DNA of 37,086 bases from a virus (taxonomy: Duplodnaviria > Heunggongvirae > Uroviricota > Caudoviricetes): IMG/VR virus record IMGVR_UViG_2671180770_000020, positions 1 to 37,086 of that record, one strand, 5' to 3'. Of this stretch, positions 4,458-31,749 are shown piece after piece. The notes beneath the pieces are model-generated. The model was given only the letters and a program-made list of their open reading frames with translations, had not been told where the DNA came from and did no database searches. Position 1 is the first letter of the stretch, and each line of letters starts with the position of its first letter. The translations under genes were made by a program, and so were the position numbers.

Positions 4458-4472
4458 GTACCTCAAAGGTAA
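4458..4472. promoter_or_regulatory. Near-perfect copy of the palindrome (gTACCtcaaaGGTAA)
   Basis: Directly downstream of the 4425-4448 terminator and upstream of the 4553 gene. Confidence 0.4.
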
Positions 4473-4552
4473 TAAAAAACCAAATCTGGTTGATCTTTTT
4501 TTTGTGTCAGCACAAAATGACCGTAATCCCAATACTAATAACAGGGCTTACC

Positions 4553-4753
4553 ATGGAAATCATTACACGTATTGATGCCGCAAAGCGCGGACTTAAACGC
4601 TACTACACCGGAAAAACATGTAAGCACGGACATGACAGTGAACGCTGGGTTTACAACGGACACTGTGTTGAGTGCACCATGGAATCAAACCGTCGTATCA
4701 GGGCAGAGATTAAGCAGATCATGATTAATTCCTCCCCACAACATTCAAGCTGA
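4553..4753 (+). CDS. Small Cys/His-rich (zinc-finger-like) protein
   Basis: 66 aa from ATG 4553; CKHGHDSERWVYNGHCVEC motif. Alternative starts at 4517 or 4490. Confidence 0.4.
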   Translation: MEIITRIDAAKRGLKRYYTGKTCKHGHDSERWVYNGHCVECTMESNRRIRAEIKQIMINSSPQHSS

Positions 4754-4768
4754 TAGCGGAGATTAATC

Positions 4769-5584
4769 ATGAGCAGACATGCAACAGATTGGGCCTGGGA
4801 GACAGATCCAGGTAGCTCATCATTAAAGCTCATACTGCTCTCGATGGCTGACAGAGCCGATGAATATAACCTCTGCTACCCCAGCATAGAACGCCTCGTT
4901 AAAGACACTTGCCTGAATAAAAAAACCGTGCAGGCCGGGCTTATATCGCTCATGAAAATGGGGCTTATTTCAGATACCGGAGAGAGAAAGGGAGCGACAA
5001 AAAGAGTGCGGGTTTTCTCTCTTAATATAACCAAAAACGGGAACATTAAAGGCAACCGGGAGGGGGGCAATGAACCCGAAAACGGTAATGTTACCGAAAA
5101 CGGGAATATACCCAAAAACGGGATGTTGAATGATCCCAAAAACGGGATGTTGAATGATCCCAAAAACGGGATCCAGAACCAGTCATATAACCAGTCATTT
5201 AACCAAGAGAGGGAGAGCAGGACAAAAAGCGGGGATTCTGTGCCTCATGACCCCGGAGCAAACAACGCCGTGATGAATAACTTTGTTCCTCCTGGTGGGC
5301 CAGGGCAATTAGGCAAATTTGTCATGCATGAACAATGGCAGCCATCAGATGACTTTCTTCGGAAAAGCTCATTGCAGGGGATCTACCTGGACAGTCTGCC
5401 AACGGCACAGGAACTTGCAGAGTTCAGAATTTACTGGATGGCTGAGGGTAAGGCATACCATCAGGCACAGTGGGAGCAGAAGCTGGCAAGGCGGCTGCAG
5501 ATTAGCAGACAGAAGCAATCAACATTACCTGATAACAACGTTCCGCACTGGAACAGCCCTGAAGCATGGGAGGATTTCTTGTGA
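4769..5584 (+). CDS. Replication initiator (lambda O-like; iterons lie inside the gene)
   Basis: 271 aa, GGAG before ATG 4769; coding sequence contains the iteron array and is followed by the P-like gene, as in lambdoid ori/O/P modules. Confidence 0.6.
   Translation: MSRHATDWAWETDPGSSSLKLILLSMADRADEYNLCYPSIERLVKDTCLNKKTVQAGLISLMKMGLISDTGERKGATKRVRVFSLNITKNGNIKGNREGGNEPENGNVTENGNIPKNGMLNDPKNGMLNDPKNGIQNQSYNQSFNQERESRTKSGDSVPHDPGANNAVMNNFVPPGGPGQLGKFVMHEQWQPSDDFLRKSSLQGIYLDSLPTAQELAEFRIYWMAEGKAYHQAQWEQKLARRLQISRQKQSTLPDNNVPHWNSPEAWEDFL
5031..5170. repeat. Iteron array (putative origin of replication)
   Basis: Six copies of CC(C/G)AAAACGG(G/T) at about 5031, 5076, 5094, 5111, 5135, 5159; the last three have 24-bp periodicity (cccaaaaacgggatgttgaatgat x2), followed by an A/T-richer stretch. 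Confidence 0.6.
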
Positions 5585-6366
5585 ACAACGTTTTTACCGC
5601 GATACAAAACCGTGACGGAGAAGCCCTTTCTCGCATGTCAGGTTATGAGCATCAGTACGTCAACAATGACAATGTGGTGAACATGTCAGCAGAGAGGCTT
5701 GTTGATGCCCTTTTCAAACAGCTGAAACAGCTGTTTCCGGCGGCAGTGGTAACCAACCTGAAGACGCCAGAGCAGGAAGTTGCTGCAAAACAGCAGTGGA
5801 TTGCTGCGTTTGCCGAAGGTGGGATCCGAACCCGTGAACAGGTTTCTGCTGGTATGCGCCACGCCCGCGCCAGTGAATCTCCGTTCTGGCCGTCGCCTGG
5901 GCAATTCATCAAGTGGTGTAAAGACAGCAAGATGGTTCTTGGCGTCACCATTGACGATGTGATGGCGGAGTTTCACCGGTACAGCAAGGAAAAAAGTTTA
6001 TATCCTGGTGGTCCCGAAAGATTCCCGTGGCGACATCCGGTTATGTACTGGGTCGTATGTGATACCCGCCGTGCAATGTATCAGCGCCAGCTTAGCGAGA
6101 TTGAGGTTGAGAAACACGCGCGCAGGCTGCTCGATGATTGGGCGAAAAAGGTAGCTTCCGGACAGCAGATACCCGATCCGGTGATCAGCATACAGGCAAA
6201 GCCAGAGCCCATGAGTACACCTCCGGACACAGGGAGAGACGTTTACCATCCACCAGGGCGAAGTTTCGGGTGCATGCCTAACGCCGCCACCCTTGGGGGA
6301 ATAACACCGGCGCAGTGGCTGATGGAGGAATACAGGCGGGGAAAGGCGGCAGGATTTATCAAGTAA
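5581..6366 (+). CDS. Replication protein P-like (DnaB helicase loader)
   Basis: Central region ...QWIAAFAEGGIRTREQVSAGMRHARASESPFWPSPGQFIKWCK... matches remembered lambda P (...QWVLAFRENGITTMEQVNAGMRVARRQNRPFLPSPGQFVAWCR...). Start set at GTG 5581 (GGGAGGA upstream, GTGA overlap); ATG 5566 is the alternative. Confidence 0.75.
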   Translation: MNNVFTAIQNRDGEALSRMSGYEHQYVNNDNVVNMSAERLVDALFKQLKQLFPAAVVTNLKTPEQEVAAKQQWIAAFAEGGIRTREQVSAGMRHARASESPFWPSPGQFIKWCKDSKMVLGVTIDDVMAEFHRYSKEKSLYPGGPERFPWRHPVMYWVVCDTRRAMYQRQLSEIEVEKHARRLLDDWAKKVASGQQIPDPVISIQAKPEPMSTPPDTGRDVYHPPGRSFGCMPNAATLGGITPAQWLMEEYRRGKAAGFIK

Positions 6367-6371
6367 TACCA

Positions 6372-6391
6372 GCGCGATAGCGCATTTTTTT
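6372..6391 (+). terminator. Weak intrinsic terminator after the P-like gene
   Basis: GCGC-gata-GCGC followed by ATTTTTTT; the stem is only 4 bp. Confidence 0.35.
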
Positions 6392-6403
6392 ACGTCTATA
6401 TGA

Positions 6404-6480
6404 TTACCTTATAGGTAATAAAATATTCTAATTTCTATTGATTTCATGTCTTATGTGGTTTTTAATTACCTAAGGGGTAA
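6404..6480. promoter_or_regulatory. Two perfect TTACC-N5-GGTAA palindromes (6404-6418, 6466-6480) upstream of the 6484 gene
   Basis: The second copy ends 3 nt before the ATG and overlaps the ribosome-binding region. Confidence 0.5.
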
Positions 6481-6483
6481 ATC

Positions 6484-6828
6484 ATGAGAAAACAGATACA
6501 GGCTCTTGGTCGACTCAAAACAGGCCAGATGAACAAAACAGAATCTGCGTATTGCCAGCACCTTGAGCTGCGTAAACGTGCAGGAGAAATCGTCTGGTAT
6601 CGATTTGAGGGTATCAAGTTGCGGTTAGCTGACAACACGTTCTATACGCCAGATTTTGCTGTGATGCTCGCCACCGGTGAGATGGAACTGCACGAAGTGA
6701 AAGGTTTCTGGACCGACGACGCCAGGGTGAAAACCAAAGTCGCCGCAGATCAGTATCCGTTCCGAATCATCGGGGTAACGGTTAAACCAAAGAAAGCAGG
6801 TGGTGGCTGGAACATCGAAGAGTTCTGA
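6484..6828 (+). CDS. DUF1064-like phage protein with a PD-(D/E)XK-type motif (putative nuclease/resolvase)
   Basis: 114 aa; ...FYTPDFAVML...ELHEVKGF... gives a D-x(n)-E-x-K signature. Confidence 0.5.
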   Translation: MRKQIQALGRLKTGQMNKTESAYCQHLELRKRAGEIVWYRFEGIKLRLADNTFYTPDFAVMLATGEMELHEVKGFWTDDARVKTKVAADQYPFRIIGVTVKPKKAGGGWNIEEF

Positions 6829-6889
6829 ATCGACGATCTTTTTAGTTATCAATGTAATCAATAAGTTATGTGGATAAGCGAGGATAAAT

Positions 6890-7477
6890 ATGGACGGTAA
6901 TATCAAGGGGTTAGTTTCCGCCGGGCATGAGATGGCTTCGGAACTGAAAGCAGAATGTGGTGCCGTTGATATGCGCAGTGTGGCAAAGCTGATCAGCGAT
7001 TTGGCAACGCAACTGGAAGTGCAATTGGTGCGTGCTAATGCGCTGGCCGAAGACCAGCAGAAAGCGATTGAGTCAATTAAGCAGGCTGATGCGGCTGTTA
7101 AGTTGGCACACGAGAAGTTTTCGGCGCTGGCGGCGGAGAATGCGGGGCTGAAGTCTGATATTCCACTTGGTGCCATCGAGAATGGCAGAGCGTTTGCAGA
7201 CCGTTTAGAGAATTACCAGTTCGAGTGTGAAGGCGGAAATCTAAACATGTGCAGTGATTGGCAGGAGTTTCGCCGTTGCTTCGAGTACTTATCTGAATGG
7301 GCAATGCATAGCCAGACAGAGCACCCAGCCACCGACGCTTTCATGGCTGAAATTCGTGCGCAGGGCGTGGAGATGGCTATGGAGCATATGCAGTCGAGCG
7401 GTTCGTTAACATTTGGAGATTGCTACATATCACTTAACGAGTTCGCCGCCCAGCTTCGCAAAGGAGGCAACCAGTGA
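6890..7477 (+). CDS. Hypothetical early protein (Ead/Ea22-like by recollection)
   Basis: 195-aa acidic ORF, AGGA before ATG 6890. Confidence 0.45.
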   Translation: MDGNIKGLVSAGHEMASELKAECGAVDMRSVAKLISDLATQLEVQLVRANALAEDQQKAIESIKQADAAVKLAHEKFSALAAENAGLKSDIPLGAIENGRAFADRLENYQFECEGGNLNMCSDWQEFRRCFEYLSEWAMHSQTEHPATDAFMAEIRAQGVEMAMEHMQSSGSLTFGDCYISLNEFAAQLRKGGNQ

Positions 7478-8154
7478 GAGAAATTAATTACCAGGCACTG
7501 CGTGAGGCGGCAGAGCAGGCAATGCATGACGACTGGGGATTTGACGCAGACCTTTTCCATGAATTGGTAACACCATCGATTGTGCTGGAACTACTGGATG
7601 AACGGGAAAGAAACCAGCAATACATCAAACGCCGCGACCAGGAGAACGAGGATATTGCGCTAACGGTAGGGAAGCTGCGTGTTGAGCTTGAGGAAGTAAA
7701 ACAACACGCTGAAGAATTATCCGAAACCAAGGCTGTTCGTAACCAATGGCGGCCAGATATTTGCCCAATAACCGGACGTGCATTTTTCATGTGGATTGAG
7801 CATCCAACATTGGGAAATGTGCCGACATATGGTGGCCCATTAGATAGTTACACCATTCCAACAAAGGACGGTGACGGTGAGTTTTCATGTGAGCGTTACG
7901 ATCATGATTTTGGCGGTTGGGTAGAAAGCGAATGTCTTGGGTTATATCTGATTGATGATAGAGAACAATGCAGGGTCTACGAACTGGAGGAACGCGTTAA
8001 GGAACTGGATGCTCGGGAAATATCGCTCCCGGAACGTAGCAGCATGCTTCATCGAACAGATTTTCACGATGATTACCAAACGGTAATGGCATACAAAGTT
8101 TCTGAAGTCATCGCTGCAATCCGCGCCGCAGGCATTCGCATCAAAGGAGAGTGA
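7474..8154 (+). CDS. Hypothetical early protein (Ead/Ea22-like by recollection)
   Basis: 226 aa; GTG start 7474 with AAGGAGG 6 nt upstream, overlapping the previous stop. Confidence 0.45.
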   Translation: MREINYQALREAAEQAMHDDWGFDADLFHELVTPSIVLELLDERERNQQYIKRRDQENEDIALTVGKLRVELEEVKQHAEELSETKAVRNQWRPDICPITGRAFFMWIEHPTLGNVPTYGGPLDSYTIPTKDGDGEFSCERYDHDFGGWVESECLGLYLIDDREQCRVYELEERVKELDAREISLPERSSMLHRTDFHDDYQTVMAYKVSEVIAAIRAAGIRIKGE

Positions 8155-8155
8155 G

Positions 8156-8347
8156 ATGGACGGACAAATATCAATCGTTCGACCAGGAGCATGTGACGAT
8201 CGCGAAATACGAATAATTATTCGTCTGGCAATGGGGAGAGCAATAACTGCTCTCATTACCCCAGAAAATCTCGCATTAGCATTAACAGGAAAGTCAGACC
8301 TGCCAGTAGAGCTAAAGCTGCGAAATGTTGAGATTAAGGTGAAATAG
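8156..8347 (+). CDS. Small hypothetical protein
   Basis: 63-aa ORF tightly packed in the operon. Confidence 0.4.
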   Translation: MDGQISIVRPGACDDREIRIIIRLAMGRAITALITPENLALALTGKSDLPVELKLRNVEIKVK

Positions 8348-8349
8348 CT

Positions 8350-8892
8350 ATGACCACTATTACCAAAGAACGTATCAAATTATTCATTAAAAATCCGCTT
8401 GATAACGGACTTACTCGTGGCGAACAAATGGAACTGGCACGAATTGCACTGGCATCACTGGAAGCCGAACCTGTAAGCCAAGCTTACAACTTGCCAGAAT
8501 TAATCGAAGGCATGGAAGTTTCCATTGATGTAAGCACTTGTGATGCTGATTTCGGTAATCGCTATTTCGGCACCGTCACCGAGGCGTTAGAACTTGATAC
8601 AGCCAAGAATGGTTACATCCTCCTGGTTCAGGACGCAGAGCCAAACTTCGATGTAAATGGCAACTATCCGGTAACTCCGGATGGCTGGATAAGCTGTAGT
8701 GAGCGAATGCCGGATACCAAAACAGCCGTTCTTGTTGCCGTGGAGTTTGACAGGAAGGGTGACTGGCGAATGAAATGGGCTACTTACATCCCGGGGCATC
8801 CTGACGCTAATGATGGGTGGATAATTCCTGGTGCGTCGTGGAAACCGTCACACTGGATGCCGCTACCAGAACCGCCGCAGGAGGTTAAGTGA
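8350..8892 (+). CDS. Hypothetical protein with C-terminal DUF551-like region
   Basis: 180 aa; C-terminal W/P-rich segment (...GWIIPGASWKPSHWMPLPEPP...). Confidence 0.45.
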   Translation: MTTITKERIKLFIKNPLDNGLTRGEQMELARIALASLEAEPVSQAYNLPELIEGMEVSIDVSTCDADFGNRYFGTVTEALELDTAKNGYILLVQDAEPNFDVNGNYPVTPDGWISCSERMPDTKTAVLVAVEFDRKGDWRMKWATYIPGHPDANDGWIIPGASWKPSHWMPLPEPPQEVK

Positions 8893-9014
8893 TGAACAAG
8901 TGCAACGCTCTGCTTTATGCCATGGTGATTGGTTTCGGCCTGGCTGCTGGTATCCGGGTTTATATTACCTGGGAGTCATTAATCAATCTGGCGTGGAGTG
9001 CGATTCGTGGCTAA
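8892..9014 (+). CDS. Small hydrophobic protein (40 aa)
   Basis: Hand-translated MNKCNALLYAMVIGFGLAAGIRVYITWESLINLAWSAIRG; ATG overlaps the preceding stop. Confidence 0.3.
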   Translation: MNKCNALLYAMVIGFGLAAGIRVYITWESLINLAWSAIRG

Positions 9015-9345
9015 ATCCCCCGCAGAACGCAAAGCCGCGCAGCGCGCTCGGCAGTCCGCCGCCGGTGAGCGCAAAATTGAACTGGTGCTGGATAAGCAGG
9101 AGCAGGAAATGCTGGCGCGGAACTGCGCCGCCCGGCGCCCTGGTCGCGATCCCTATGAAATGGCCGAGTACATCGCGCTGCTGATCCGCCAGGATGATGC
9201 ACGTGTGCGCGGGCGTATAAAATCGATCAGCAGAAAACGTTGCGGTAAGTGCGGCGAGAGAGTTCCAGTTAATTCATGCCCGTGTAATGGTGACTCGCAA
9301 TGCTGGGTGACTAAAGGCTGGCATGAAACGAAATTAATAGTGTGA
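9007..9345 (+). CDS. Basic protein with C-terminal Cys-rich zinc-ribbon motif; candidate late-gene regulator
   Basis: About 112 aa from GTG 9007; ...CGKCGERVPVNSCPCNGDSQC...; last early-side gene before a terminator and the terminase genes. Confidence 0.4.
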   Translation: MAKSPAERKAAQRARQSAAGERKIELVLDKQEQEMLARNCAARRPGRDPYEMAEYIALLIRQDDARVRGRIKSISRKRCGKCGERVPVNSCPCNGDSQCWVTKGWHETKLIV

Positions 9346-9394
9346 CATGTCACGAGTGGATTATGCATGATGAATTTGACGGGTTTTGAATACT

Positions 9395-9420
9395 GCCGCC
9401 AACTATGGCGGCTTTATTTT
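9395..9420 (+). terminator. Intrinsic terminator upstream of the terminase genes
   Basis: GCCGCC-aactat-GGCGGC followed by TTTATTTT. Confidence 0.6.
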
Positions 9421-9431
9421 GCATGGTACTA

Positions 9432-9464
9432 TTACCACAACGGTAACTATTACCACGGTGGTTA
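9432..9464. promoter_or_regulatory. Tandem palindrome copies (TTACCacaacGGTAA 9432-9446; TTACCacggtGGTtA 9450-9464) directly upstream of the small terminase start
   Basis: Located between the 9395-9420 terminator and ATG 9464. Confidence 0.45.
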
Positions 9465-10060
9465 TGATGCCTGCTGAACCTAAAACCTATAAACGCAAAT
9501 CAACGCAATTTAAGCCGCTCACAGCAATGCAGGAGGCTTATTGCCAGTCATACATCAAAACGCCTGAAAACCAGACTCAGGCAGCGATTAACGCAGGATT
9601 CTCCCCAAATACAGCGGCAGTTAAAGCCAGTGTCATGATGCGCGATGAACGCATTCAAAAACGGATTGCCGAGTTGATGGAGGAGCGCAACAAACGAATG
9701 CGCGTCAGTGCTGATTACGTTCTCATGCGCCTGGTGGAGATCGACCAGATGGACGTGATCGACATCCTCAACGACGATGGGAGCCTTAAGCCAATCCGCG
9801 AGTGGCCGAAAATCTGGCGCACTACGCTTAGCGGCTTTGATCTGTCATCGACCATCATGAACATGAACGAGGATTCGATAGAGACAATCCTCAAAAAAAT
9901 TAAATGGCCTGACAAGGTGAAGAACCTCGAACTGATTGGTAAGCACGTCGACGTCAACGCGTTCAAAGAACGCCTGGATGTTAATGTGAATGTGACAATT
10001 GCTGATCGCATAGCGGCAGCCAGGAAGCGACTCAAAGAACGTCAGGATGGTAATCAGTGA
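9464..10060 (+). CDS. Terminase small subunit
   Basis: Directly upstream of and overlapping (GTGA) the large terminase; start set at ATG 9464 because the TTG start at 9386 in the ORF track would read through the terminator hairpin. Confidence 0.6.
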   Translation: MMPAEPKTYKRKSTQFKPLTAMQEAYCQSYIKTPENQTQAAINAGFSPNTAAVKASVMMRDERIQKRIAELMEERNKRMRVSADYVLMRLVEIDQMDVIDILNDDGSLKPIREWPKIWRTTLSGFDLSSTIMNMNEDSIETILKKIKWPDKVKNLELIGKHVDVNAFKERLDVNVNVTIADRIAAARKRLKERQDGNQ

Positions 10061-11526
10061 CAGATACAGCGTTATCTCCTGAAGAGCAGTTGATCGAGGA
10101 TATTGCAGGGTTCACTCACGATCCGCTTGGCTATGCCCTCTATGCGTTCCCGTGGGGGGAAGAGGGGACTGAACTGGCACATGCCACCGGCCCACGTCAG
10201 TGGCAAGCCGATGCGTTCCGAGAGATACGTGATCACCTGCAGAATCCAGAGACGCGCTATCAGCCGCTTATGCTGGCACGCGCTTCGGGGCACGGTATTG
10301 GTAAATCAGCATTCATCTCAATGCTGATCAACTGGGGCATGTCCACTTGCGAGGATTGTAAGGTCGTGGTGACCGCCAACACCGACAACCAGCTACGAAC
10401 GAAGACCTGGCCGGAAATTATCAAGTGGTCGAACCTTGCTATCACGAAAGACTGGTTTACCTGTACCGCTACCGCGATGTACAGCAATGACCCTGGGCAC
10501 GACAAACGGTGGCGGGCTGACGCAATACCCTGGTCTGAGCACAACACTGAGGCATTCGCCGGACTACACAACGAGCGCAAACGCATCATCGTGGTATTCG
10601 ATGAAGCGTCGAACATTGCGGATCTGGTGTGGGAAGTTGCTGAGGGTGCGCTTACGGACGAAGACACTGAGATTATCTGGGTGGCGTTCGGAAACCCTAC
10701 ACGTAATACCGGGCGTTTTCGCGAATGTTTCCGCAAATACAAACACCGCTGGAAAACTGCGCAGATTGACAGCCGGACGGTGGAAGGTACTAACAAACAG
10801 CAGTTGCAGAAATGGGTTGATGACTACGGGGAAGACAGCGACTTCGTTAAAATCCGTGTGCGCGGCATATTCCCTGATGCATCTGAATTGCAGTTTATCC
10901 CTACCGGTCTTACTGATGAGGCAATGAAACGGGTGGTAACCGCTGCGCAGGTGGCACATGCTCCGGTGATAATCGGTGTTGACCCGGCATATTCAGGCGT
11001 TGATGACGCGGTGATATACCTGCGGCAGGGGTTGCATAGTAAGGTGCTATGGACTGGCAACAAGACCACTGACGATCTGATTATGGCGAAGCGTATCGCT
11101 GACTTTGAAGACCAGTACCAGGCTGACGCAGTGTTCATCGACTTCGGTTACGGAACTGGTCTGAAGTCAATCGGTGACGGCTGGGGTCGTACATGGCAAC
11201 TTGTTCCGTTCGGTGGCGTGTCTACTGACCCGCAGATGCTCAACAAGCGTGGGGAGATGTTCAACTCATGTAAGACATGGCTGAGGCTGGGCGGGATGCT
11301 GGATGACCAGGAAACAGCGGACGATCTGTCTGCGGCAGAGTACAAAGTTCGCGTGGACGGTAAAATCGTTATCGAACCGAAGGAAGATATCAAAGAACGA
11401 CTTGGGCGTTCACCTGGTAAAGGCGATGCGCTACTGCTGACGTTTGCGTTCCCGGTAGCCAAGAAAACTAATGACCCACGGCAGCAGCAGGGCAGGGCTA
11501 TAACAGACTATGACCCATTTGAATGA
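10057..11526 (+). CDS. Terminase large subunit
   Basis: 489 aa; Walker A-like ...ARASGHGIGKSAF...; acidic nuclease-type C-terminal half; GTG start overlapping the small-subunit stop. Confidence 0.8.
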   Translation: MTDTALSPEEQLIEDIAGFTHDPLGYALYAFPWGEEGTELAHATGPRQWQADAFREIRDHLQNPETRYQPLMLARASGHGIGKSAFISMLINWGMSTCEDCKVVVTANTDNQLRTKTWPEIIKWSNLAITKDWFTCTATAMYSNDPGHDKRWRADAIPWSEHNTEAFAGLHNERKRIIVVFDEASNIADLVWEVAEGALTDEDTEIIWVAFGNPTRNTGRFRECFRKYKHRWKTAQIDSRTVEGTNKQQLQKWVDDYGEDSDFVKIRVRGIFPDASELQFIPTGLTDEAMKRVVTAAQVAHAPVIIGVDPAYSGVDDAVIYLRQGLHSKVLWTGNKTTDDLIMAKRIADFEDQYQADAVFIDFGYGTGLKSIGDGWGRTWQLVPFGGVSTDPQMLNKRGEMFNSCKTWLRLGGMLDDQETADDLSAAEYKVRVDGKIVIEPKEDIKERLGRSPGKGDALLLTFAFPVAKKTNDPRQQQGRAITDYDPFE

Positions 11527-11529
11527 TTT

Positions 11530-12378
11530 TTACTTTTGTGTTTTTGATTTTCTTTGATAGGTGGAATTTAAATCACCATTTATATTTACTAGAGGATTAT
11601 TCAATAATGTACTGATTTCTGGATTGTTAATTCCAGTAACGCCAAATTTCTTTACGGACTCATTAAGGTCTTGTAATGATTTTAGACCTACAAACCCATT
11701 AGCAATTGTATTATTTGTTGCCAAAGGAATGTTTTCCTTATAGGACTCATATTCGTTTTTTAAATTTTTGTGAGCTTTTTCTAGATTTTCTAGTTTAGAT
11801 GTTGTTTCATCAATAACCTTAGATAATTCTAAAATACGAGCTTGTGCTGCGCGCAGTTCTGTCTCCCTCTCTTTCAATTCAGATGTGAGTTGTCCCATTC
11901 TGTCTTTTGAAAGAATTATTTCCTCTTTCATGTCTTGAATGTTTTTTTCAGCGCCTGTTTTTACTTTTTCGTAAGTAATGTCTTTTTTAGCCAGCAATCT
12001 CTGTAGCCGTGTTTCACGTTGTATTTTTCTTGCCTTCCGGTGGTTTTCGATTGAGTCATTATTATCAAGAGGTTTTGCTTGCCATACGTTAATGATATTG
12101 TTTACCCATGGTAATAGGCAGCAGATAGTAATTACAGATAAGCATGGATAAAACATAACAGTTTTCCATGTGCTGTTATCTGAGATGTATGAAATTTTAT
12201 CTATTATATTTGATTTGCTAAAAAACAGATAAAGAAGTGATTTCCAGTTGAAGGCGCACCAGGACATAACAAAAGCACCAAGCACAGGGTTTTTGGCTCT
12301 ATGCACGGCAGTGTTTGCAGTAGATAAAAACAGCTCTTTGAACGATTCAAACATACTAATTACCTTAAAGTTTTTCAT
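11530..12378 (-). CDS. Moron: membrane-anchored coiled-coil protein of unknown function
   Basis: 282 aa from ATG 12378 (MKNFKVI...); markedly AT-rich relative to neighbours; opposite strand to the flanking late genes; two hydrophobic segments then a long Lys/Glu-rich coiled coil; own terminator and palindrome upstream. Confidence 0.55.
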   Translation of the reverse strand: MKNFKVISMFESFKELFLSTANTAVHRAKNPVLGAFVMSWCAFNWKSLLYLFFSKSNIIDKISYISDNSTWKTVMFYPCLSVITICCLLPWVNNIINVWQAKPLDNNDSIENHRKARKIQRETRLQRLLAKKDITYEKVKTGAEKNIQDMKEEIILSKDRMGQLTSELKERETELRAAQARILELSKVIDETTSKLENLEKAHKNLKNEYESYKENIPLATNNTIANGFVGLKSLQDLNESVKKFGVTGINNPEISTLLNNPLVNINGDLNSTYQRKSKTQK

Positions 12379-12382
12379 GATT

Positions 12383-12397
12383 ATACCTTTAAGGTAA
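12383..12397. promoter_or_regulatory. Near-perfect palindrome copy (aTACCtttaaGGTAA) abutting the moron start
   Basis: A minus-strand TATAAT overlaps the site just upstream of ATG 12378. Confidence 0.4.
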
Positions 12398-12410
12398 TTT
12401 GTGGTCATCA

Positions 12411-12436
12411 GGCAAAAAAATACCCGGCGAACCGGG
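12411..12436 (-). terminator. Intrinsic terminator between the tRNA and the moron
   Basis: Minus strand CCCGG-ttcg-CCGGG followed by TATTTTTTTG. Confidence 0.5.
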
Positions 12437-12515
12437 CGAACTGGAAGCAATGAGTTATGCCTTCCGTGGCTGTACTGGTTTACAGCATGAAGTCATCGCA
12501 ATGGCGTCCTGCTGT

Positions 12516-12557
12516 AAAAAGGGCGGTGATAGTCCTTCAAGGGAAACTATCACCGCC
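12516..12557 (-). terminator. Intrinsic terminator immediately downstream of the tRNA
   Basis: Minus strand 12-bp stem GGCGGTGATAGT / ACTATCACCGCC followed by CTTTTTT. Confidence 0.65.
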
Positions 12558-12600
12558 AAGCACCTGGAACTTCTGGCATCACGGTCCTTAGGCGTGATTC

Positions 12601-12677
12601 TGGCGTGGCATGCAGGATTCGAACCTGCGACCAACCGCTTAGAAGGCGGTTGCTCTGTCCAACTGAGCTAATGCCAC
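12601..12677 (-). tRNA. tRNA-Arg (anticodon UCU), 77 nt with encoded CCA
   Basis: Hand-folded cloverleaf: acceptor GUGGCAU/AUGCCAC, D-arm GCUC-AGUUGGACA-GAGC, anticodon arm ACCGC-CUUCUAA-GCGGU, variable loop UGGUC, T-arm GCAGG-UUCGAAU-CCUGC, discriminator G, CCA. Confidence 0.9.
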
Positions 12678-13000
12678 AACACTGAGAGCACTTAGCCTGT
12701 TAAGTGCGCCACACTTTGTCGCGGCTCCATAAATGCTCTCATCGTTGTACCCTCGTCTCTTCCGAGGCGTCACACCGAATCGCCGGGATGGTGAATCCCC
12801 GTGCGCGGAATAAAACCGCTCGACTTGCACATTCCGGCTACCTGGTTCGTTTGCCCGAGCAAGGGAGGGTGCCCCTTAAACGTATCCAGACCGCTATCGG
12901 CGCATGTGCCATACGCCGTACTGCTCAAAATAAAAGCTCACTCCACCTGTTCAATTTAACGATAAGCCAGTCAGGTTAATAACCGGAATGAACACTTTAC

Positions 13001-13015
13001 TTACCTGAAAGGTAA
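13001..13015. promoter_or_regulatory. Perfect palindrome TTACCtgaaaGGTAA upstream of the head gene cluster
   Basis: Lies in the non-coding interval between the tRNA and the first head-module gene (13106). Confidence 0.45.
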
Positions 13016-13105
13016 TAATTCGTGCGTTAAATGTCAACTATCTACGATAAATAAATCATATGTGGTTAAATTGGTAATAATTTAATTGCGTACGGAGTCA
13101 TTGAT

Positions 13106-13312
13106 ATGTGCATGGGTAGCTCACCGTCAGTGCCTGCAACACCAGAAGTTCAGGCAGCACCACAGGAGCAGGATGCCGCCGTTGTTGATGCCCGCGACGA
13201 AGAAACTCGTCGCCGTCGCGCTGCTGCTGGTCGTAGTTCTACGCTGCTTACCGGTTCTCAGGGCGACACATCAACCGCTAATACCAGCGGTAAAACGCTG
13301 CTTGGTCAGTAA
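13106..13312 (+). CDS. Small hypothetical protein preceding the portal gene
   Basis: 68 aa; shares the initiation context cGGAGTCATTGA-N-ATG with the portal gene. Confidence 0.45.
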   Translation: MCMGSSPSVPATPEVQAAPQEQDAAVVDARDEETRRRRAAAGRSSTLLTGSQGDTSTANTSGKTLLGQ

Positions 13313-13326
13313 CCGGAGTCATTGAA

Positions 13327-15299: not shown

Positions 15300-15301
15300 T
15301 C

Positions 15302-15997: not shown

Positions 15998-16011
15998 GAG
16001 AGGAAATGACA

Positions 16012-16998: not shown

Positions 16999-17049
16999 CG
17001 CCTGTTATTAACCTGTGGGTCGTAACAGACCCACTAATGGAGAAAGAAG

Positions 17050-26604: not shown

Positions 26605-26609
26605 ATTAA

Positions 26610-29084: not shown

Positions 29085-29093
29085 GGAAGTGTT

Positions 29094-29267: not shown

Positions 29268-29279
29268 ATAGGTGACTAC

Positions 29280-29576
29280 ATGCAAGCGATAGGATTCATT
29301 GTTTATATCGTCGTTGGCCTTTTTCAGTTGGCAGCAATTATGGCTGGGCTTGAATCATGGTGGGGATTGCACTGGATAATTGCAGCCCCCATTGCTTTCA
29401 TCGTGAGCTATATTCCATTTGTTGGAGCGATTGTTGGTATGGTTGGCGCTGTGGATGTATGGCGGTGGGAGTGGTGGCAGGCTGGCCTTCTCTTCTTTGG
29501 TGGGATCATCTTTGCTATTGTCTGCGGTGGAATGTCATCATTTTTCGAACGGCTATCATTCAGAAAAGGAACGTGA
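29280..29576 (+). CDS. Integral membrane protein (98 aa, about 3-4 predicted TM helices)
   Basis: AGGTGA upstream of ATG 29280; strongly hydrophobic with Trp-rich loops; followed by a terminator. Confidence 0.5.
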   Translation: MQAIGFIVYIVVGLFQLAAIMAGLESWWGLHWIIAAPIAFIVSYIPFVGAIVGMVGAVDVWRWEWWQAGLLFFGGIIFAIVCGGMSSFFERLSFRKGT

Positions 29577-29585
29577 CATGTCACA

Positions 29586-29609
29586 GGCCGCTTTCGCGGC
29601 CTTGTTTTT
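29586..29609 (+). terminator. Intrinsic terminator after the membrane-protein gene
   Basis: GGCCGC-tttc-GCGGCC followed by TTGTTTTT. Confidence 0.55.
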
Positions 29610-29648
29610 AACGAATGCCACCGCCGCCCGGGCGGGAATCCGCAGACA

Positions 29649-29671
29649 CAAAAAAGCCCGCGTCGCGGGCT
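29649..29671 (-). terminator. Intrinsic terminator after the minus-strand gene 29679-30314
   Basis: Minus strand AGCCCGC-gac-GCGGGCT followed by TTTTTT (A-run 29650-29655 on plus). Confidence 0.55.
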
Positions 29672-29678
29672 TAACGAA

Positions 29679-30314
29679 TTATTCTATTGGCAGCTTATGC
29701 TTTGAAATTATGGCCAATCTGTTTTGGAAGTTTTCCGCATCACCCCACAACCAGGTTTCACCTTTCTCAAGCTCTTCCTCGTTATTCATCTCTATCAGTT
29801 CGCATGTCATCATGTCGTAACCATAGAGGTGGAGGCCAAGTTCCAGTGCGTCATACATGCGAGCCTGCCAGAACGACATGCCTTCATGAGTCTGGTTGCG
29901 ATCAGACACGATGATATCGTACCGTTCCAAGAGGTAGTTCATGAAGATGATGCCGGCGAAATCATGAAGCACAGCACGATGCTTAGGCTTCTGGGTTCTC
30001 CATACCAATATCTGCGTGACAGGTCGGCAGTTAAGATAGCTGTCAGGCTGGATAATGACACGATTGTAATACACAACCTCTTCGGTGAGGTCATTTATCA
30101 GTGCCAGTTCAAAGTGCGCCTGTGGAATCTCGCCTTTCTTACGATCGTCTACACGGACAACGCGGTATCCAGGAGCCAGAGAAACGCCTTTGACATCAGA
30201 TGTGACATCGTTGCCGTTCACTAACTCTGAATACAGGGCGCGGTTGTCTGGAGTTTCGTTCAGATGAGCGAAAACCTCAGTTACCTTTGCCGGATTCAGC
30301 AGTTGTTGTGGCAT
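29679..30314 (-). CDS. Hypothetical cytoplasmic protein (211 aa) in the accessory island
   Basis: ATG 30314 with GAGGTGA upstream; no recognisable motif. Confidence 0.5.
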   Translation of the reverse strand: MPQQLLNPAKVTEVFAHLNETPDNRALYSELVNGNDVTSDVKGVSLAPGYRVVRVDDRKKGEIPQAHFELALINDLTEEVVYYNRVIIQPDSYLNCRPVTQILVWRTQKPKHRAVLHDFAGIIFMNYLLERYDIIVSDRNQTHEGMSFWQARMYDALELGLHLYGYDMMTCELIEMNNEEELEKGETWLWGDAENFQNRLAIISKHKLPIE

Positions 30315-30352
30315 ACATCACCTCATAATATAGAAACTTCATTAAACGGGAT

Positions 30353-30367
30353 TTACCCGTAAGGTAA
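30353..30367. promoter_or_regulatory. Perfect palindrome TTACCcgtaaGGTAA (identical 15-mer to the 3361-3375 copy)
   Basis: Between the antirepressor stop (with a downstream hairpin at 30409-30424) and the start of gene 29679-30314. Confidence 0.5.
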
Positions 30368-30432
30368 TAGTACGCTATTCACCTGCAATCTGTACAGAAT
30401 TATTTAAAGGCACATCCCTGTGCCGCCGCCCG

Positions 30433-31083
30433 TCAGAAGAACCCTGCCTTGTCGTTGATGTATTCCGCGTGAGTCTGGATATCACGCAGGCATTTGCTCA
30501 CACCGACGATGTAGCAGAACATGGTGGTCAGCTCCGCCGCCGCGCCCGATACATCGTGCCCGTCTTCCTGTAACTGGTTCAGCAGATTCATCAGCAGTGA
30601 GTTCTCCGTCAGGCCGAGAACACCAGATGGGGAATGAATCAGACTGCGGTAGCCGGGCTTCAGCGGTGCACTGTATTCTTTTTTGTCTTCCAGCTTGATC
30701 GCCTCCATAATGGCTGGCATGAAGCCTGACAAGACCTTCTCCACTTTTGTTTCTTGTTGTCTTAAACGTTTCTCGCATTCAATGAAGTAGCGTCGCACCT
30801 GGCGACCTTTTTCGTTACGCTCGACCATCGCCAGCTCTTTGGCTGTATCGAGGGTGAGGTGGTAGTCTTTTGCAGGACGGCCTCTGCCTATTTTTTCCCG
30901 AACTTGGGAAATAATCATAAAGTCTTGATTTTCAACGAAACCATATTCAGCAATTCGTTCGACAATCCACGAAGCAAATCGCTTACCCACATCGAGGAAA
31001 GTGTGTAAATCACGGGCATTAACGAGAAGAGCGGTTTCGTTGGATATAGTGCCGTTGAATACGGGGATGAGTTGAGCGTTCAT
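30433..31083 (-). CDS. Antirepressor (AntA-type N-terminal domain)
   Basis: 216 aa; N-terminal ...LIPVFNGT...NARDLHTFLDVGKRFASWIVERIAEYGFVENQDFMI... matches the remembered AntA/AntB antirepressor domain; GGAG upstream of ATG 31083. Confidence 0.7.
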   Translation of the reverse strand: MNAQLIPVFNGTISNETALLVNARDLHTFLDVGKRFASWIVERIAEYGFVENQDFMIISQVREKIGRGRPAKDYHLTLDTAKELAMVERNEKGRQVRRYFIECEKRLRQQETKVEKVLSGFMPAIMEAIKLEDKKEYSAPLKPGYRSLIHSPSGVLGLTENSLLMNLLNQLQEDGHDVSGAAAELTTMFCYIVGVSKCLRDIQTHAEYINDKAGFF

Positions 31084-31240
31084 TATGGCGTCTCCACTTA
31101 GCGAATTACATCACCACCGCTGAGACCAATCAGATGGTGGTGAACTGAACGGAGTTGGTCTTACCGGCCTAAGTGGTACCGGCGTCCTTTCGGACCCCCA
31201 TTCAGCCCACCATAATTCTGGCATGACTGTGCTATACGCA

Positions 31241-31263
31241 TAAAAAAACCACGTCTGGCGTGG
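31241..31263 (-). terminator. Intrinsic terminator between the small Ant-like gene and the antirepressor gene
   Basis: Minus strand CCACG-ccaga-CGTGG followed by TTTTTTTAT. Confidence 0.45.
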
Positions 31264-31354
31264 TATGCGCCACTTAGTAATCCGGGAGACCAATCCCGGC
31301 ACTGGATTTTGCCAGTGCCCGATTACTATGGCACAAGAGGAGTGCGATGTAAAT

Positions 31355-31369
31355 TTACCGCAAAGGTAA
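31355..31369. promoter_or_regulatory. Perfect palindrome TTACCgcaaaGGTAA in the leader upstream of the antirepressor gene
   Basis: Followed by the near-palindrome GGTAATTACA at about 31389-31398. Confidence 0.45.
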
Positions 31370-31400
31370 ATATAAGCACTCCGCTTGGTAATTACAAACC

Positions 31401-31658
31401 TTATCTGGTTTGTTTTCGTAATTGTTCGGCACAATAGTCGAGATGTGTTTGCAGATCCTGCATAGACATCTGTGAGCTGGTGACGTAGTTAATCAGTGCA
31501 GTCAGTTCGGCAAGTGGGCCATCGACATTAAATCCATCCTTATCGAGATCCCGGAGTAATTTCATCAAGTGCGATCCCTCCACCAGTGACCTGACGCCTC
31601 CCGGCGTGTGAATCCTTTCGGTAAATCCCTCTTCCAGTGGATAGTGATACTGCTGCAT
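31401..31658 (-). CDS. Small protein (85 aa) paralogous to the C-terminal domain of the adjacent antirepressor; LexA-box-associated
   Basis: MQQYHYPLEEGFTERIHTPGGVRSLVEGSHLMKLLRDLDKDGFNVDGPLAELTALINY...DLQTHLDY aligns by eye with antirepressor residues about 130-205 (...YSAPLKPGYRSLIHSPSGVLGLTENSLLMNLLNQLQEDGHDVSGAAAELTTMF...DIQTHAEY); GGAGAAG upstream of ATG 31658. Confidence 0.6.
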   Translation of the reverse strand: MQQYHYPLEEGFTERIHTPGGVRSLVEGSHLMKLLRDLDKDGFNVDGPLAELTALINYVTSSQMSMQDLQTHLDYCAEQLRKQTR

Positions 31659-31679
31659 CTTATCTTCTCCATGCAATAA

Positions 31680-31695
31680 CTGTATAAATATACAG
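31680..31695. promoter_or_regulatory. LexA (SOS) box CTGT-N8-ACAG
   Basis: aaCTGTATAAATATACAGta at 31678-31697, a near-consensus match to TACTGTATATATATACAGTA, 22-37 nt upstream of the small Ant-like gene start on the transcribed side. Confidence 0.7.
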
Positions 31696-31734
31696 TAGCA
31701 AATAATTTGTTTGCTATCCAGCACGTTTTGCGAA

Positions 31735-31749
31735 TCACCTGAAAGGTAA
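31735..31749. promoter_or_regulatory. Near-perfect palindrome copy (tCACCtgaaaGGTAA) upstream of the LexA box
   Basis: About 40 bp beyond the LexA box in the divergent intergenic region shared with the tail fiber gene. Confidence 0.4.

What the first reader, a model, noticed from the sequence alone, without database searches (positions are those of the whole stretch)
4458..31749. The same operator palindrome is scattered at the head of most transcription units across the prophage
Beyond the immunity region there are perfect copies at 6404-6418, 6466-6480, 9432-9446, 13001-13015, 30353-30367 (the identical 15-mer to 3361-3375) and 31355-31369, and one-mismatch copies at 4458-4472, 9450-9464, 12383-12397 and 31735-31749. 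A 10-specified-base palindrome is expected about 0.04 times in 37 kb of random sequence; 9 perfect copies were found, all intergenic. Copies usually sit just past an intrinsic terminator and just before the next gene (early, late, moron and antirepressor loci). This resembles a distributed-operator (stoperator-like) layout, or a shared site for another phage regulator.
Basis: seen in the sequence. Interest (0 to 1): 0.85.

Follow-up and report, generated by a model that had tools for sequence, protein, structure and literature searches.

The report
Dispersed repressor operators in ε15-like prophage
The repeated palindrome is real and is most likely the binding site of the prophage's main repressor, placed on the promoter of nearly every transcription unit; the same layout is already annotated in the public record of the related phage ε15, so this confirms a known design rather than revealing a new one.

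Summary
Confirmed. TTACC-N5-GGTAA occurs 9 times perfectly and 14 times with at most one mismatch in the 37-kb window (0.01 and 0.66 expected). Every copy lies in the 7.6% of the sequence that is intergenic.

The window is a phiV10/ε15-type (Uetakevirus) prophage next to yfgI. Its repressor (3433-4017, -) and small antirepressor (31401-31658, -, behind a LexA box) are homologues of the crystallised Rep/Ant pair of Salmonella phage SPC32H.

The motif sits at the same syntenic places in phiV10, ε15, SPC32H, Tyrion, and a Klebsiella and a Serratia relative. Half-sites are 95% conserved; the 5-bp spacer is 54% conserved. The public ε15 record already annotates seven such sites as repressor-binding sites, including those before terminase, portal, tailspike and a RuvC-like gene. 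The distributed-operator reading is therefore right but not new.

"Stoperator-like" does not fit. The site is a symmetric palindrome, and at least seven copies lie on promoter cores, four of them conserved across genera. Typically the last T of the -10 is the first T of TTACC, with a partner site 62 bp upstream. That points to promoter occlusion, probably with looping by tetrameric Rep.

The closest functional analogue is the dispersed C1 operators of phage P1.

The parts
3299..3313 (.). OL1 operator (perfect), centred on +1 of leftward early promoter PL
   Evidence: -35 TTGACA 3341-3336 and -10 AATTAT 3318-3313 on the - strand. The last T of the -10 is the first T of TTACC. TTGACA-17-(A/G)ATTAT|TACC is invariant in 6 phages.
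3361..3375 (.). OL2 operator (perfect), 62 bp from OL1 (about -62 of PL), just past the rep terminator (3412-3393, -)
   Evidence: the 62-63 bp spacing is conserved in phiV10, Tyrion, ε15, SPC32H and BUCT711
3433..4017 (-). rep: immunity repressor, homologue of SPC32H Rep
   Evidence: PDB 5D50_A, E 3.5e-42, full length; N-terminal NLVNRW..G.K.IG..AR.IE invariant across the genus; HTH_3
4073..4087 (.). OR operator (perfect) between rep and p41
4090..4104 (.). degenerate OR operator (2 mismatches), 17 bp from 4073; perfect in ε15, SPC32H and BUCT711
4121..4135 (.). OR operator (1 mismatch) in the spacer of rightward promoter PR (-35 TTGATT 4111-4116, invariant)
4172..4402 (+). p41, Cro-position small HTH protein; possible second user of the operators
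   Evidence: phrog_35 transcriptional repressor, E 5.6e-13; 27% identity to the Rep HTH, E 0.004
4458..4472 (.). weak operator (left half GTACC) after the p41 terminator (4424-4443), before the replication genes. The weak left half is conserved at this position across the genus.
6404..6418 (.). operator (perfect) after the terminator 6372-6391; about -62 of the DUF1064-gene promoter
6466..6480 (.). operator (perfect) centred on +1 of promoter TTGATT(6438-6443)-17-TTTAAT(6461-6466); it also covers the Shine-Dalgarno of gene 6484-6828
   Evidence: promoter hexamers, operator pair and 62-bp spacing conserved in 6 phages
9432..9446 (.). operator (perfect) centred on +1 of the terminase promoter (extended -10 TGgTACTAT 9424-9432), after terminator 9395-9412
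   Evidence: annotated as a repressor site at the equivalent place in ε15 (12-27)
9450..9464 (.). second, weaker operator (GGTTA), covering the terS ribosome-binding site; terS starts at ATG 9464
12383..12397 (.). operator (1 mismatch) in the spacer of leftward promoter ATGACC-17-TATAAT (12408..12380) of the 274-aa accessory gene (11530-12354, -)
13001..13015 (.). operator (perfect) at the left edge of the conserved head/tail module, 98 bp before gp3 (13106). A conserved GGTAA half-site (13073-13077) lies exactly where the right half of a 62-bp partner would be.
   Evidence: annotated as a repressor site in ε15 (2931-2947)
30353..30367 (.). operator (perfect) centred on +1 of leftward promoter TGTACA(30396-30391)-18-TACTAT(30372-30367) of the 211-aa accessory gene (29679-30314, -)
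   Evidence: homology with another prophage begins at 30352
31355..31369 (.). operator (perfect) abutting the -35 (TTTACA 31353-31348) of the isrK promoter; centre about -44
   Evidence: the 5' end of the isrK model, 31318, lies 7 nt past the -10 CATAGT 31330-31325
30433..31318 (-). isrK sRNA (31318-31242), C4 antisense RNA (31217-31133) and AntA-family antirepressor gene (31083-30433): an immI-like module downstream of operator 31355
31401..31658 (-). ant: small antirepressor, homologue of SPC32H Ant
   Evidence: PDB 5D50_E, E 5e-47
31680..31695 (.). LexA box CTGTATAAATATACAG in front of ant
   Evidence: conserved in 6 phages
31735..31749 (.). operator (1 mismatch, TCACC) between divergent ant and tailspike. 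It lies 60 bp before a conserved GGTAA half-site (31795-31799) that abuts the tailspike -10 (TCCATA 31777-31782, 17 bp, TAGAAT 31800-31805).
   Evidence: annotated as a repressor site in ε15 (19895-19911)

Best explanation
The palindrome (A)TTACC-N5-GGTAA(T) is the operator of the prophage's immunity repressor Rep (3433-4017, -). Rep is a homologue of the tetrameric Rep of Salmonella phage SPC32H.

This phage family does not rely on one pair of repressed early promoters plus an antitermination cascade. Instead it is cut into short transcription units, each insulated by a terminator and each with its own promoter and its own Rep operator. In the lysogen Rep therefore shuts every unit directly.

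Operator positions:
- At the strong promoters (PL, the DUF1064-gene promoter, the terminase promoter, the 211-aa gene promoter) the operator begins at the last base of the -10 hexamer and covers +1. This is promoter occlusion.
- At PR and the 274-aa gene promoter it lies in the -35/-10 spacer.
- PL and the DUF1064-gene promoter have a second operator exactly 62 bp (about six helical turns) upstream. The head-gene promoter has the same geometry, with a half-site as the downstream partner. One tetramer, which has two pairs of DNA-binding domains, probably holds both sites and loops the promoter.

Induction. DNA damage removes LexA from the box in front of ant. Ant then disassembles Rep tetramers, and all units are released at once.

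Shown here: the sites, their statistics, their positions relative to conserved promoter hexamers, their conservation, and the homology of Rep and Ant.

Inferred: Rep binding at each dispersed site, the transcription start points (except isrK, which is supported by the Rfam model boundary), looping, and the lack of an antitermination cascade.
For: 1. The dispersed copies have the same sequence as the operators flanking rep.

2. The ε15 GenBank record annotates ATTACC-N5-GGTAAT as 'protein_bind: repressor'. It does so at the immunity region and also before terS, before gp3/portal, between gp19 and tailspike, and before the RuvC-like gene.

3. Rep and Ant of the window match PDB 5D50 chains A and E (E 3.5e-42 and 5e-47). 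A canonical LexA box precedes ant.

4. The layout is syntenic in phiV10 (14 sites), Tyrion (15), SPC32H, ε15, Klebsiella BUCT711 and a Serratia prophage. At 9 orthologous sites in 6 phages, half-site columns are 95% identical, against 54% for N5 and 69% for flanks. Weak sites stay weak at the same positions.

5. The Rep N-terminal domain is invariant in its putative recognition helix, although the proteins are only 43% identical overall.

6. Independent link between domain and half-site. Pseudomonas siphovirus PseuP_224 has an unrelated backbone, but its cI N-terminus is homologous to the Rep N-terminus (E 1e-12). It carries TTACC-N4-GGTAA four times, only around cI. The Rep-less relative phiSG1 has none.

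7. Promoter overlap is conserved across genera at PL, PR, the DUF1064-gene promoter and terS. The isrK TSS is consistent with the Rfam model start.

8. The 62-bp spacing holds in 11 of 12 pairs across four host genera. Full-site to half-site distances of 72 and 60 bp are invariant in 4 phages.

9. SPC32H Rep is a tetramer with an N-terminal DNA-binding domain and a C-terminal 'TetDloop' tetramerisation fold, which is associated with DNA looping (PMC9986798; PMC9638917).

10. In phage ZX5, whose Rep is 99.5% identical, Rep overexpression abolished free phage and cut holin and endolysin mRNA by more than 99.9% (PMC9782041).

11. Host control: 0 perfect copies in 100 kb of E. coli chromosome.
Against: - No binding data for any dispersed site could be consulted. 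The ε15 features may be purely predicted, and the primary papers (Kropinski 2007; Kim & Ryu 2013; Kim 2016) are not in the held library.
- At the head-gene and tailspike promoters the full site lies about 70-80 bp upstream of the likely -10. Simple occlusion cannot apply there.
- At the isrK promoter the site is centred near -44, a position from which λ CI activates PRM. Rep could activate rather than repress there.
- Promoter hexamers were called by consensus. The scan as a whole found no more promoter-like sites than shuffles do in 2800-13400 (12 against 13.5).
- The ZX5 transcript data do not separate direct from indirect repression.
- The absence of a Q/N-type antiterminator is only a failure to find one by Pfam or PHROGs.
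Confidence: 0.8

Rival explanations
1. Roadblock (stoperator-like) function. Rep bound at the copies between co-directional genes (4458, 6404/6466, 9432/9450, 13001) mainly stops RNA polymerase that reads through from upstream promoters, rather than blocking initiation.
For: These copies lie in short gaps of the rightward gene array, each just past a terminator-like hairpin. A bound tetramer would back up a leaky terminator. The 4458 and 13001 sites do not overlap an obvious promoter core.
Against: - The site is a symmetric palindrome, not an oriented asymmetric site. The repressor is a tetramer related to SPC32H Rep, not a monomer.
- 6466 and 9432 sit exactly on +1 of conserved promoters.
- The leftward copies (12383, 30353, 31355) and the divergent-region copy (31735) have no upstream co-directional transcription to stop.
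Confidence: 0.12
2. The dispersed copies are used mainly by another phage regulator. The candidate is the Cro-position protein p41 (4172-4402), or an activator made from the early-left operon. Such a protein would set lytic timing, and Rep would matter only at OL/OR.
For: - p41 belongs to a PHROG of transcriptional repressors, and its HTH is weakly similar to that of the Rep N-terminal domain.
- By the λ paradigm (established knowledge), Cro and CI share operators.
- The sites at about -70/-80 of the late promoters and at -44 of isrK are at activator-like distances.
Against: - The similarity of p41 to Rep is marginal (E 0.004).
- The motif follows the Rep-type N-terminal domain into an unrelated Pseudomonas phage.
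- ε15 curators assigned the sites to the repressor.
- Rep overexpression alone silences late transcripts in ZX5.
Confidence: 0.12
3. The palindrome is a phage-specific promoter or other polymerase-recognition element repeated at unit heads, in the manner of T7-type promoters, and not a repressor site.
For: It occurs at the heads of transcription units, and at several loci its left flank doubles as the end of a -10 hexamer.
Against: - Its position relative to the promoter hexamers varies: +1, -17, -25, -44, -62, about -70/-80.
- It is dyad-symmetric.
- No phage RNA polymerase or sigma factor was seen among the proteins scanned.
- Ordinary sigma-70 hexamers are conserved beside it.
Confidence: 0.03
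4. The copies persist chiefly as junction sequences for mosaic exchange. Short conserved operator/terminator blocks would serve as recombination points at which accessory cassettes are swapped between related phages.
For: - Homology with SPC32H and Tyrion starts exactly at 13001, with ε15 at 12998, and with another E. coli prophage at 30352.
- Different accessory genes in that other prophage each carry their own perfect copy.
- The N5 of site 31355 is inverted between the window and phiV10.
Against: - Junctions at unit heads are expected anyway, because variable genes sit between units.
- 15 bp is very short for homologous exchange.
- This does not explain the strict half-site conservation with a free spacer, nor the 62-bp geometry.
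- It is compatible with the operator function and not an alternative to it.
Confidence: 0.08

Closest known systems
Repressor-binding sites annotated in Salmonella phage ε15 (GenBank AY150271.2; Kropinski et al. 2007, Virology 369:234)
   Same: Same genus. Same consensus, ATTACC-N5-GGTAAT. Same syntenic positions: OL, before terS, before gp3/portal, the gp19(ant)-tailspike gap, and before the first nin-like gene.
   Different: - The window's Rep is only 43% identical to ε15 gp38.
- The window has extra copies on accessory cassettes absent from ε15 (12383, 30353, 31355).
- The window lacks the lysis-unit copy.
- ε15 annotates 7 of its 11 perfect copies.
- I could not read the paper, so I do not know which sites were tested.
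Rep/Ant lytic switch of Salmonella phage SPC32H (PDB 5D50, 5D4Z; Kim & Ryu 2013; Kim et al. 2016)
   Same: Homologous Rep and Ant. A LexA box precedes ant. The SPC32H genome carries the same motif at the same places.
   Different: The published work, as far as secondary sources show, concerns Rep oligomerisation and its disassembly by Ant. Whether it treats the dispersed sites is unknown to me.
C1 repressor regulon of phage P1 (22 dispersed operators; immI operon c4-icd-ant)
   Same: One immunity repressor controls many promoters scattered over the genome (PMC8546580) and is inactivated by antirepressor proteins. The window even has a C4 antisense RNA and an AntA-family gene downstream of one operator.
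   Different: - The P1 operator is an asymmetric 17-mer (ATTGCTCTAATAAATTT).
- C1 is unrelated in sequence.
- P1 is a plasmid prophage.
- Here induction runs through a LexA-controlled small Ant.
Stoperators of cluster A mycobacteriophages (L5 gp71 and relatives)
   Same: Many copies of the repressor site are spread through the genome in short intergenic gaps. The effect is whole-genome silencing by one repressor (PMC9283540).
   Different: Stoperators are asymmetric 13-mers, are bound by a monomer using two domains, depend on orientation, and act on elongation. Here the site is a palindrome for a tetrameric HTH repressor and lies mostly on promoter cores.
λ CI at OL/OR (cooperative binding and looping)
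   Same: Graded-affinity operator clusters flank the repressor gene. Paired sites suggest cooperative or looped binding by an oligomeric repressor.
   Different: λ has operators only at the immunity region and reaches late genes through the N and Q antiterminators. Here every unit has its own operator, and the loops would be short (62 bp).
cI of Pseudomonas siphovirus PseuP_224
   Same: Its N-terminal DNA-binding domain is homologous to that of Rep (E 1e-12). It uses the same half-sites, TTACC/GGTAA.
   Different: The spacer is N4. There are only four copies, all around cI. The phage is lambda-like and has an annotated Q antiterminator.

Membership tests
Uetakevirus (ε15/SPC32H-type) Rep-Ant immunity regulon | Repressor homologous to SPC32H Rep / ε15 gp38 | tested here: met
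   PDB 5D50_A, E 3.5e-42 over residues 1-190; alignment
Uetakevirus (ε15/SPC32H-type) Rep-Ant immunity regulon | Small antirepressor Ant, divergent from tailspike, behind a LexA box | tested here: met
   5D50_E, E 5e-47; CTGTATAAATATACAG at 31680-31695, conserved
Uetakevirus (ε15/SPC32H-type) Rep-Ant immunity regulon | ATTACC-N5-GGTAAT operators on both sides of the repressor gene | tested here: met
Uetakevirus (ε15/SPC32H-type) Rep-Ant immunity regulon | Further copies at the syntenic places annotated as repressor sites in ε15 (terS, gp3/portal, ant-tailspike, first nin-like gene) | tested here: met
Uetakevirus (ε15/SPC32H-type) Rep-Ant immunity regulon | Rep physically binds the dispersed copies and represses the adjacent promoters | not testable with these tools
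   Only indirect support: conservation, the ZX5 overexpression data, and the link between domain and half-site in PseuP_224
Stoperators (cluster A mycobacteriophages) | Asymmetric 13-14 bp site bound by a monomeric repressor | tested here: not met
   The site is a perfect hyphenated palindrome. The Rep homologue is a tetramer.
Stoperators (cluster A mycobacteriophages) | Site orientation correlates with the direction of transcription | tested here: not met
   The half-sites are symmetric, so there is no orientation. Only the free N5 differs, and it is even inverted between the window and phiV10 at 31355.
Stoperators (cluster A mycobacteriophages) | Sites lie within transcribed intergenic gaps away from promoters and act on elongation | tested here: inconclusive
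   At least 7 copies overlap promoter cores. The copies at 4458, 6404, 13001 and 31735 do not, and could act as roadblocks.
Stoperators (cluster A mycobacteriophages) | Repressor of the L5 gp71 family | tested here: not met
   the only PDB sequence matches at E <= 0.001 are the SPC32H Rep chains. No match to the mycobacteriophage repressor structure described in PMC9283540.
P1-type C1 dispersed-operator regulon | One immunity repressor with operators at many scattered promoters | tested here: met
   (15 sites at 11 loci). Compare the 22 operators in P1. This is a functional analogy only.
P1-type C1 dispersed-operator regulon | Asymmetric 17-bp operator ATTGCTCTAATAAATTT and a C1-family repressor | tested here: not met
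   Different, symmetric motif. Rep is an HTH_3/SPC32H-type protein.
P1-type C1 dispersed-operator regulon | immI-like module (C4 antisense RNA plus antirepressor) under a repressor-controlled promoter | tested here: met
   C4, 61.2 bits; isrK, 67.7 bits; AntA, E 8e-28; operator 31355 abuts the -35 of the isrK promoter. That this promoter is actually controlled by Rep is inferred.

The most novel reading that the evidence does not exclude
The dispersed operators are not independent switches but the nodes of one physical structure.

Each Rep tetramer carries two pairs of DNA-binding domains. It would bridge two operators: 62-bp micro-loops at PL, at the DUF1064-gene promoter and at the head-gene promoter, and long-range bridges between the single sites. 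The whole prophage would then be folded into a silenced multi-loop body that Ant dissolves in one step.

On this reading the operator also serves as a portable 'plug'. Any accessory cassette that lands behind a copy, or recombines at one, joins the immunity regulon. That would explain why unrelated accessory genes in different prophages each carry a perfect copy.
Probability: 0.25. Interest if true: 0.5.

Novelty: already known. Interest (0 to 1): 0.25.

Why it matters
The result shows how a common family of E. coli and Salmonella prophages is kept silent. The family includes phiV10, ε15 and SPC32H, which are serotype-converting and widespread in O157 and other STEC strains. Instead of a λ-style cascade, one repressor sits on almost every promoter, and one LexA-controlled antirepressor releases all of them.

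Three practical consequences follow:
- It gives a ready rule for annotating these prophages: a 15-bp motif marks unit heads and true start codons. For example, terS starts at 9464, not at the upstream TTG.
- It predicts that accessory genes behind an operator are lytic-phase genes rather than lysogenic-conversion genes.
- It offers a compact natural set of promoters with graded repression by one protein.

None of this overturns current understanding.

Tried and rejected
1. Primary literature. I tried to read Kropinski et al. 2007 (PMC2698709), Kim & Ryu 2013 (PMC3807360) and Kim et al. 2016 (PMC4983836 and by DOI). None is held. What I say about their content beyond the GenBank and PDB records and secondary citations is from memory and is marked as such.

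2. A full-text search for ATTACC/GGTAAT returned only primer lists.

3. Covariation test. I looked for relatives with a changed recognition helix and a correspondingly changed motif. None was found: all Rep homologues down to 43% identity keep the helix and the motif. The nearest substitute was PseuP_224, with the same half-sites and an N4 spacer.

4. Sodalis phiSG1 as a comparison genome. It is a degraded composite without Rep, useful only as a negative control.

5. Host transcription-factor site. Rejected because 100 kb of E. coli chromosome holds no perfect copy, and only 5 one-mismatch copies against roughly 2-3 expected by chance.

6. RNA-level hairpin as the function of the motif. The 5-bp stem (2 G-C) is too weak, and the copies lie on both sides of start points. 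Not pursued.

7. Function of the accessory genes behind operators. Pfam, PHROGs, PADLOC and NCBIfam gave only coiled-coil noise or families of unknown function.

8. The identical 15-mer at 3361 and 30353 as a sign of duplication. The flanks share nothing, and phiV10 has a different N5 at OL2, so it is probably coincidence within an A-rich spacer.

Full report
**What the window is.** The window is about 97% identical to Escherichia phages phiV10, PAS61 and phiv142-3, and about 80% identical to Salmonella phage ε15 over shared genes. It is a Uetakevirus prophage. Its right end abuts yfgI/yfgH (36016-37086), as in other E. coli lysogens. The window starts inside the early-left operon, so int and attL are not included.

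- TTACC-N5-GGTAA has 9 perfect copies (0.01 expected) and 14 copies with at most one mismatch (0.66 expected). A two-mismatch copy at 4090 is syntenic with perfect copies in relatives.
- It is the dominant hyphenated palindrome of the window.
- A weight matrix trained only on five relatives finds 13 window sites at >=14 bits, against 0.035 in shuffles, with a clean gap to the next score (9.4).
- All sites fall in the 7.6% of the window that is intergenic on my gene map.
- 100 kb of E. coli chromosome has no perfect copy, and one-mismatch copies only at roughly chance level.

**Whose site it is.**
- The gene at 3433-4017 (-) is a full-length homologue of the SPC32H repressor Rep (PDB 5D50_A, E 3.5e-42).
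- The gene at 31401-31658 (-) is a homologue of its antirepressor Ant (5D50_E, E 5e-47). It is preceded by a canonical LexA box at 31680-31695.
- The decisive point for novelty is the GenBank record of ε15. It carries seven 'protein_bind: repressor / lysogeny' features, and every one is ATTACC-N5-GGTAAT. Three are left of the repressor gene. The other four are before terS, before gp3/portal, between gp19 (the Ant homologue) and the tailspike gene, and before the RuvC-like gene. The dispersed-operator layout is therefore already on public record for this genus.
- From memory, which I could not check because the paper is not held, Kropinski et al. 2007 described this 17-bp hyphenated inverted repeat as the ε15 operator.

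**Conservation.**
- The same motif occupies the same syntenic places in phiV10 (14 sites), Tyrion (15), SPC32H, ε15, Klebsiella phage BUCT711 and a Serratia prophage whose Rep is 54% identical.
- At nine orthologous sites aligned over six phages, half-site columns are 95% identical, the N5 spacer 54% and the 10-bp flanks 69%.
- Weak sites are weak at the same place in every phage: GTACC/ACACC/ATACC after the p41 terminator, and GGTGA or TCACC/ACACC in PR. This is what a conserved affinity hierarchy looks like.
- The Rep proteins are only 43% identical overall but share an invariant N-terminal stretch, ANLVNRW..G.K.IG..AR.IE. Secondary literature places the DNA-binding domain of SPC32H Rep at the N-terminus.

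**An independent link between protein domain and half-site.** Pseudomonas siphovirus PseuP_224 has an unrelated lambda-like backbone and an annotated Q antiterminator. Its cI N-terminus is homologous to that of Rep (39% over 71 residues, E 1e-12). Its genome holds TTACC-N4-GGTAA four times, two on each side of cI and nowhere else. Conversely phiSG1, a relative by its portal gene that has no Rep homologue, has no copy. The half-site follows the DNA-binding domain. The dispersal is peculiar to Uetakeviruses.

**How the sites sit on promoters.**

| Promoter | Hexamers | Operator position |
|---|---|---|
| PL (leftward) | TTGACA-17-AATTAT | Last T of the -10 is the first T of OL1, so OL1 covers +1; OL2 is 62 bp further up. 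The whole arrangement is invariant in six phages. |
| DUF1064 gene (6484) | TTGATT-17-TTTAAT | Same design: operator on +1 (also covering the Shine-Dalgarno), partner 62 bp upstream, terminator before it. Conserved in six phages. |
| Terminase | Extended -10 TGgTACTAT | Fused to operator 9432; a weaker copy lies over the terS ribosome-binding site. |
| 211-aa accessory gene | TGTACA-18-TACTAT | -10 fused to operator 30353. |
| PR | TTGATT (-35) | Operator in the -35/-10 spacer. |
| 274-aa gene | ATGACC-17-TATAAT | Operator in the -35/-10 spacer. |
| isrK | -35 TTTACA | Operator 31355 abuts the -35. The Rfam isrK model begins at 31318, 7 nt past the -10, which independently supports this start; the operator centre is near -44. 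|
| Head genes and tailspike | Likely -10 abutted by a conserved GGTAA half-site | The full site lies further upstream. Its distance to the half-site is invariant in four phages: 72 bp (the geometry of a 62-bp pair) and 60 bp. |

The 62-bp spacing holds in 11 of 12 pairs across four host genera. SPC32H Rep is a tetramer whose C-terminal tetramerisation domain has a fold associated with DNA looping. I therefore infer, but have not shown, that one tetramer holds both sites of a pair.

**Why 'stoperator-like' is the wrong label.** By the definition in PMC9283540, stoperators are asymmetric 13-mers bound by a monomer. They are orientation-dependent and stop elongation in intergenic gaps. The present site is symmetric, its repressor family is tetrameric, and most copies are on promoter cores. 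A secondary roadblock role for copies that follow terminators in the rightward array (4458, 6404, 13001) remains possible.

The better functional analogue is P1. Its C1 repressor has 22 operators dispersed over the genome, and its immI operon (c4 RNA, ant) is repressor-controlled. The window also has an isrK sRNA, a C4 antisense RNA and an AntA-family gene in a row behind operator 31355. The P1 operator and repressor are, however, unrelated to these.

**Working model.** The genome is cut into terminator-insulated units, each with its own promoter and Rep operator. No Q- or N-type antiterminator was detected among the early genes, which is weak negative evidence. Rep silences all units directly. 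DNA damage lifts LexA from the ant promoter, and Ant takes Rep tetramers apart. The Ant mechanism is from secondary sources and from my memory of the abstracts. In ZX5, whose Rep is 99.5% identical, Rep overexpression removed free phage and reduced holin and endolysin mRNA by more than 99.9%. That is consistent with the model but does not prove direct action.

**What is perhaps not yet described.**
- The strict fusion of the -10 to the operator.
- The 62-bp pairing, and its half-site variant at the head-gene promoter.
- Operators on accessory cassettes: 12383, 30353 and 31355 here; three other perfect copies beside different accessory genes in another E. coli prophage.
- Homology blocks with distant relatives begin exactly at 13001 and 30352, so operators mark mosaic boundaries.

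These are refinements of a known system.

Noticed in passing
window 9342-9353 and 29573-29584; L001 (ε15) 2142, 19517, 39612; also L002, L004, L005, L006, L009: A second dispersed palindrome, GTGACATGTCAC, overlaps the TGA stop codon of the last gene of the early-right and late operons, just before their intrinsic terminators. Two or three copies sit at syntenic operon ends in six of the related phage genomes fetched (0.1 expected per window). Function unknown; it marks unit ends as the Rep operator marks unit heads.
   Followed up: partly
window 13058-13067, 31780-31789, 33930-33939 (perfect); 6451-6460 (1 mismatch); about 4481 (2 mismatches): The motif (C)ATATRTGGTT recurs a few tens of bases downstream of the Rep sites. 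It occurs before gp3, the tailspike gene, the lysis genes, the DUF1064 gene and the replication genes, and is conserved across genera. At the tailspike gene it forms the -35/spacer of TCCATA-17-TAGAAT. It could be a shared promoter core or the site of a second regulator.
   Followed up: partly
window 31318-31242 (-), 31217-31133 (-), 31083-30433 (-): Rfam finds an isrK Hfq-binding sRNA (67.7 bits) and a C4 antisense RNA (61.2 bits) in tandem upstream of an AntA/AntB-family antirepressor gene. This is a P1 immI / Gifsy-1 isrK-type module and a second antirepression circuit beside the SPC32H-type Ant.
   Followed up: partly
window 31340-31385; L002 20484-20524: Operator 31355 is the centre of a longer inverted repeat just past the ant stop codon. 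In phiV10 the arms are 18 bp and perfect, and the 5-bp loop is inverted relative to the window (TTTGC against GCAAA). In the window the inner left arm has diverged.
   Followed up: no
window 5074-5205 (inside the DnaT-like gene 4769-5584): Three adjoining tandem-repeat arrays: period 18 x2.8, period 24 x2.6 at 100% identity, and period 12 x2.4. They resemble origin iterons placed inside the replication-initiator gene, as in λ O.
   Followed up: no
window 12601-12677 (-): A tRNA-Arg (anticodon UCU) lies between the head-gene operator and the 274-aa accessory gene. It is followed on the - strand by two terminator-like hairpins (12557-12522 and 12437-12422).
   Followed up: no
window 11530-12354 (-) and 29679-30314 (-): Two accessory genes sit behind Rep operators: a 274-aa protein (weak matches to SMC-type coiled-coil regions only) and a 211-aa protein. 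Neither has an assignable family in Pfam, PHROGs (families of unknown function only), PADLOC or NCBIfam. Their operators predict expression in the lytic phase, not in the lysogen.
   Followed up: partly
window 9386-10060; L002 41-715: The phiV10 record starts terS at an upstream codon, which places both terS operators inside the gene. Comparison with ε15 and the sequence itself put the real start at ATG 9464 in the window.
   Followed up: yes
window 2622-2828 (-) and 132-458 (-): The early-left operon encodes a 68-aa MarR-like winged-helix protein and a PerC/ANR-like 'transcriptional activator' (phrog_868). These are candidate regulators of the weak late promoters.
   Followed up: no
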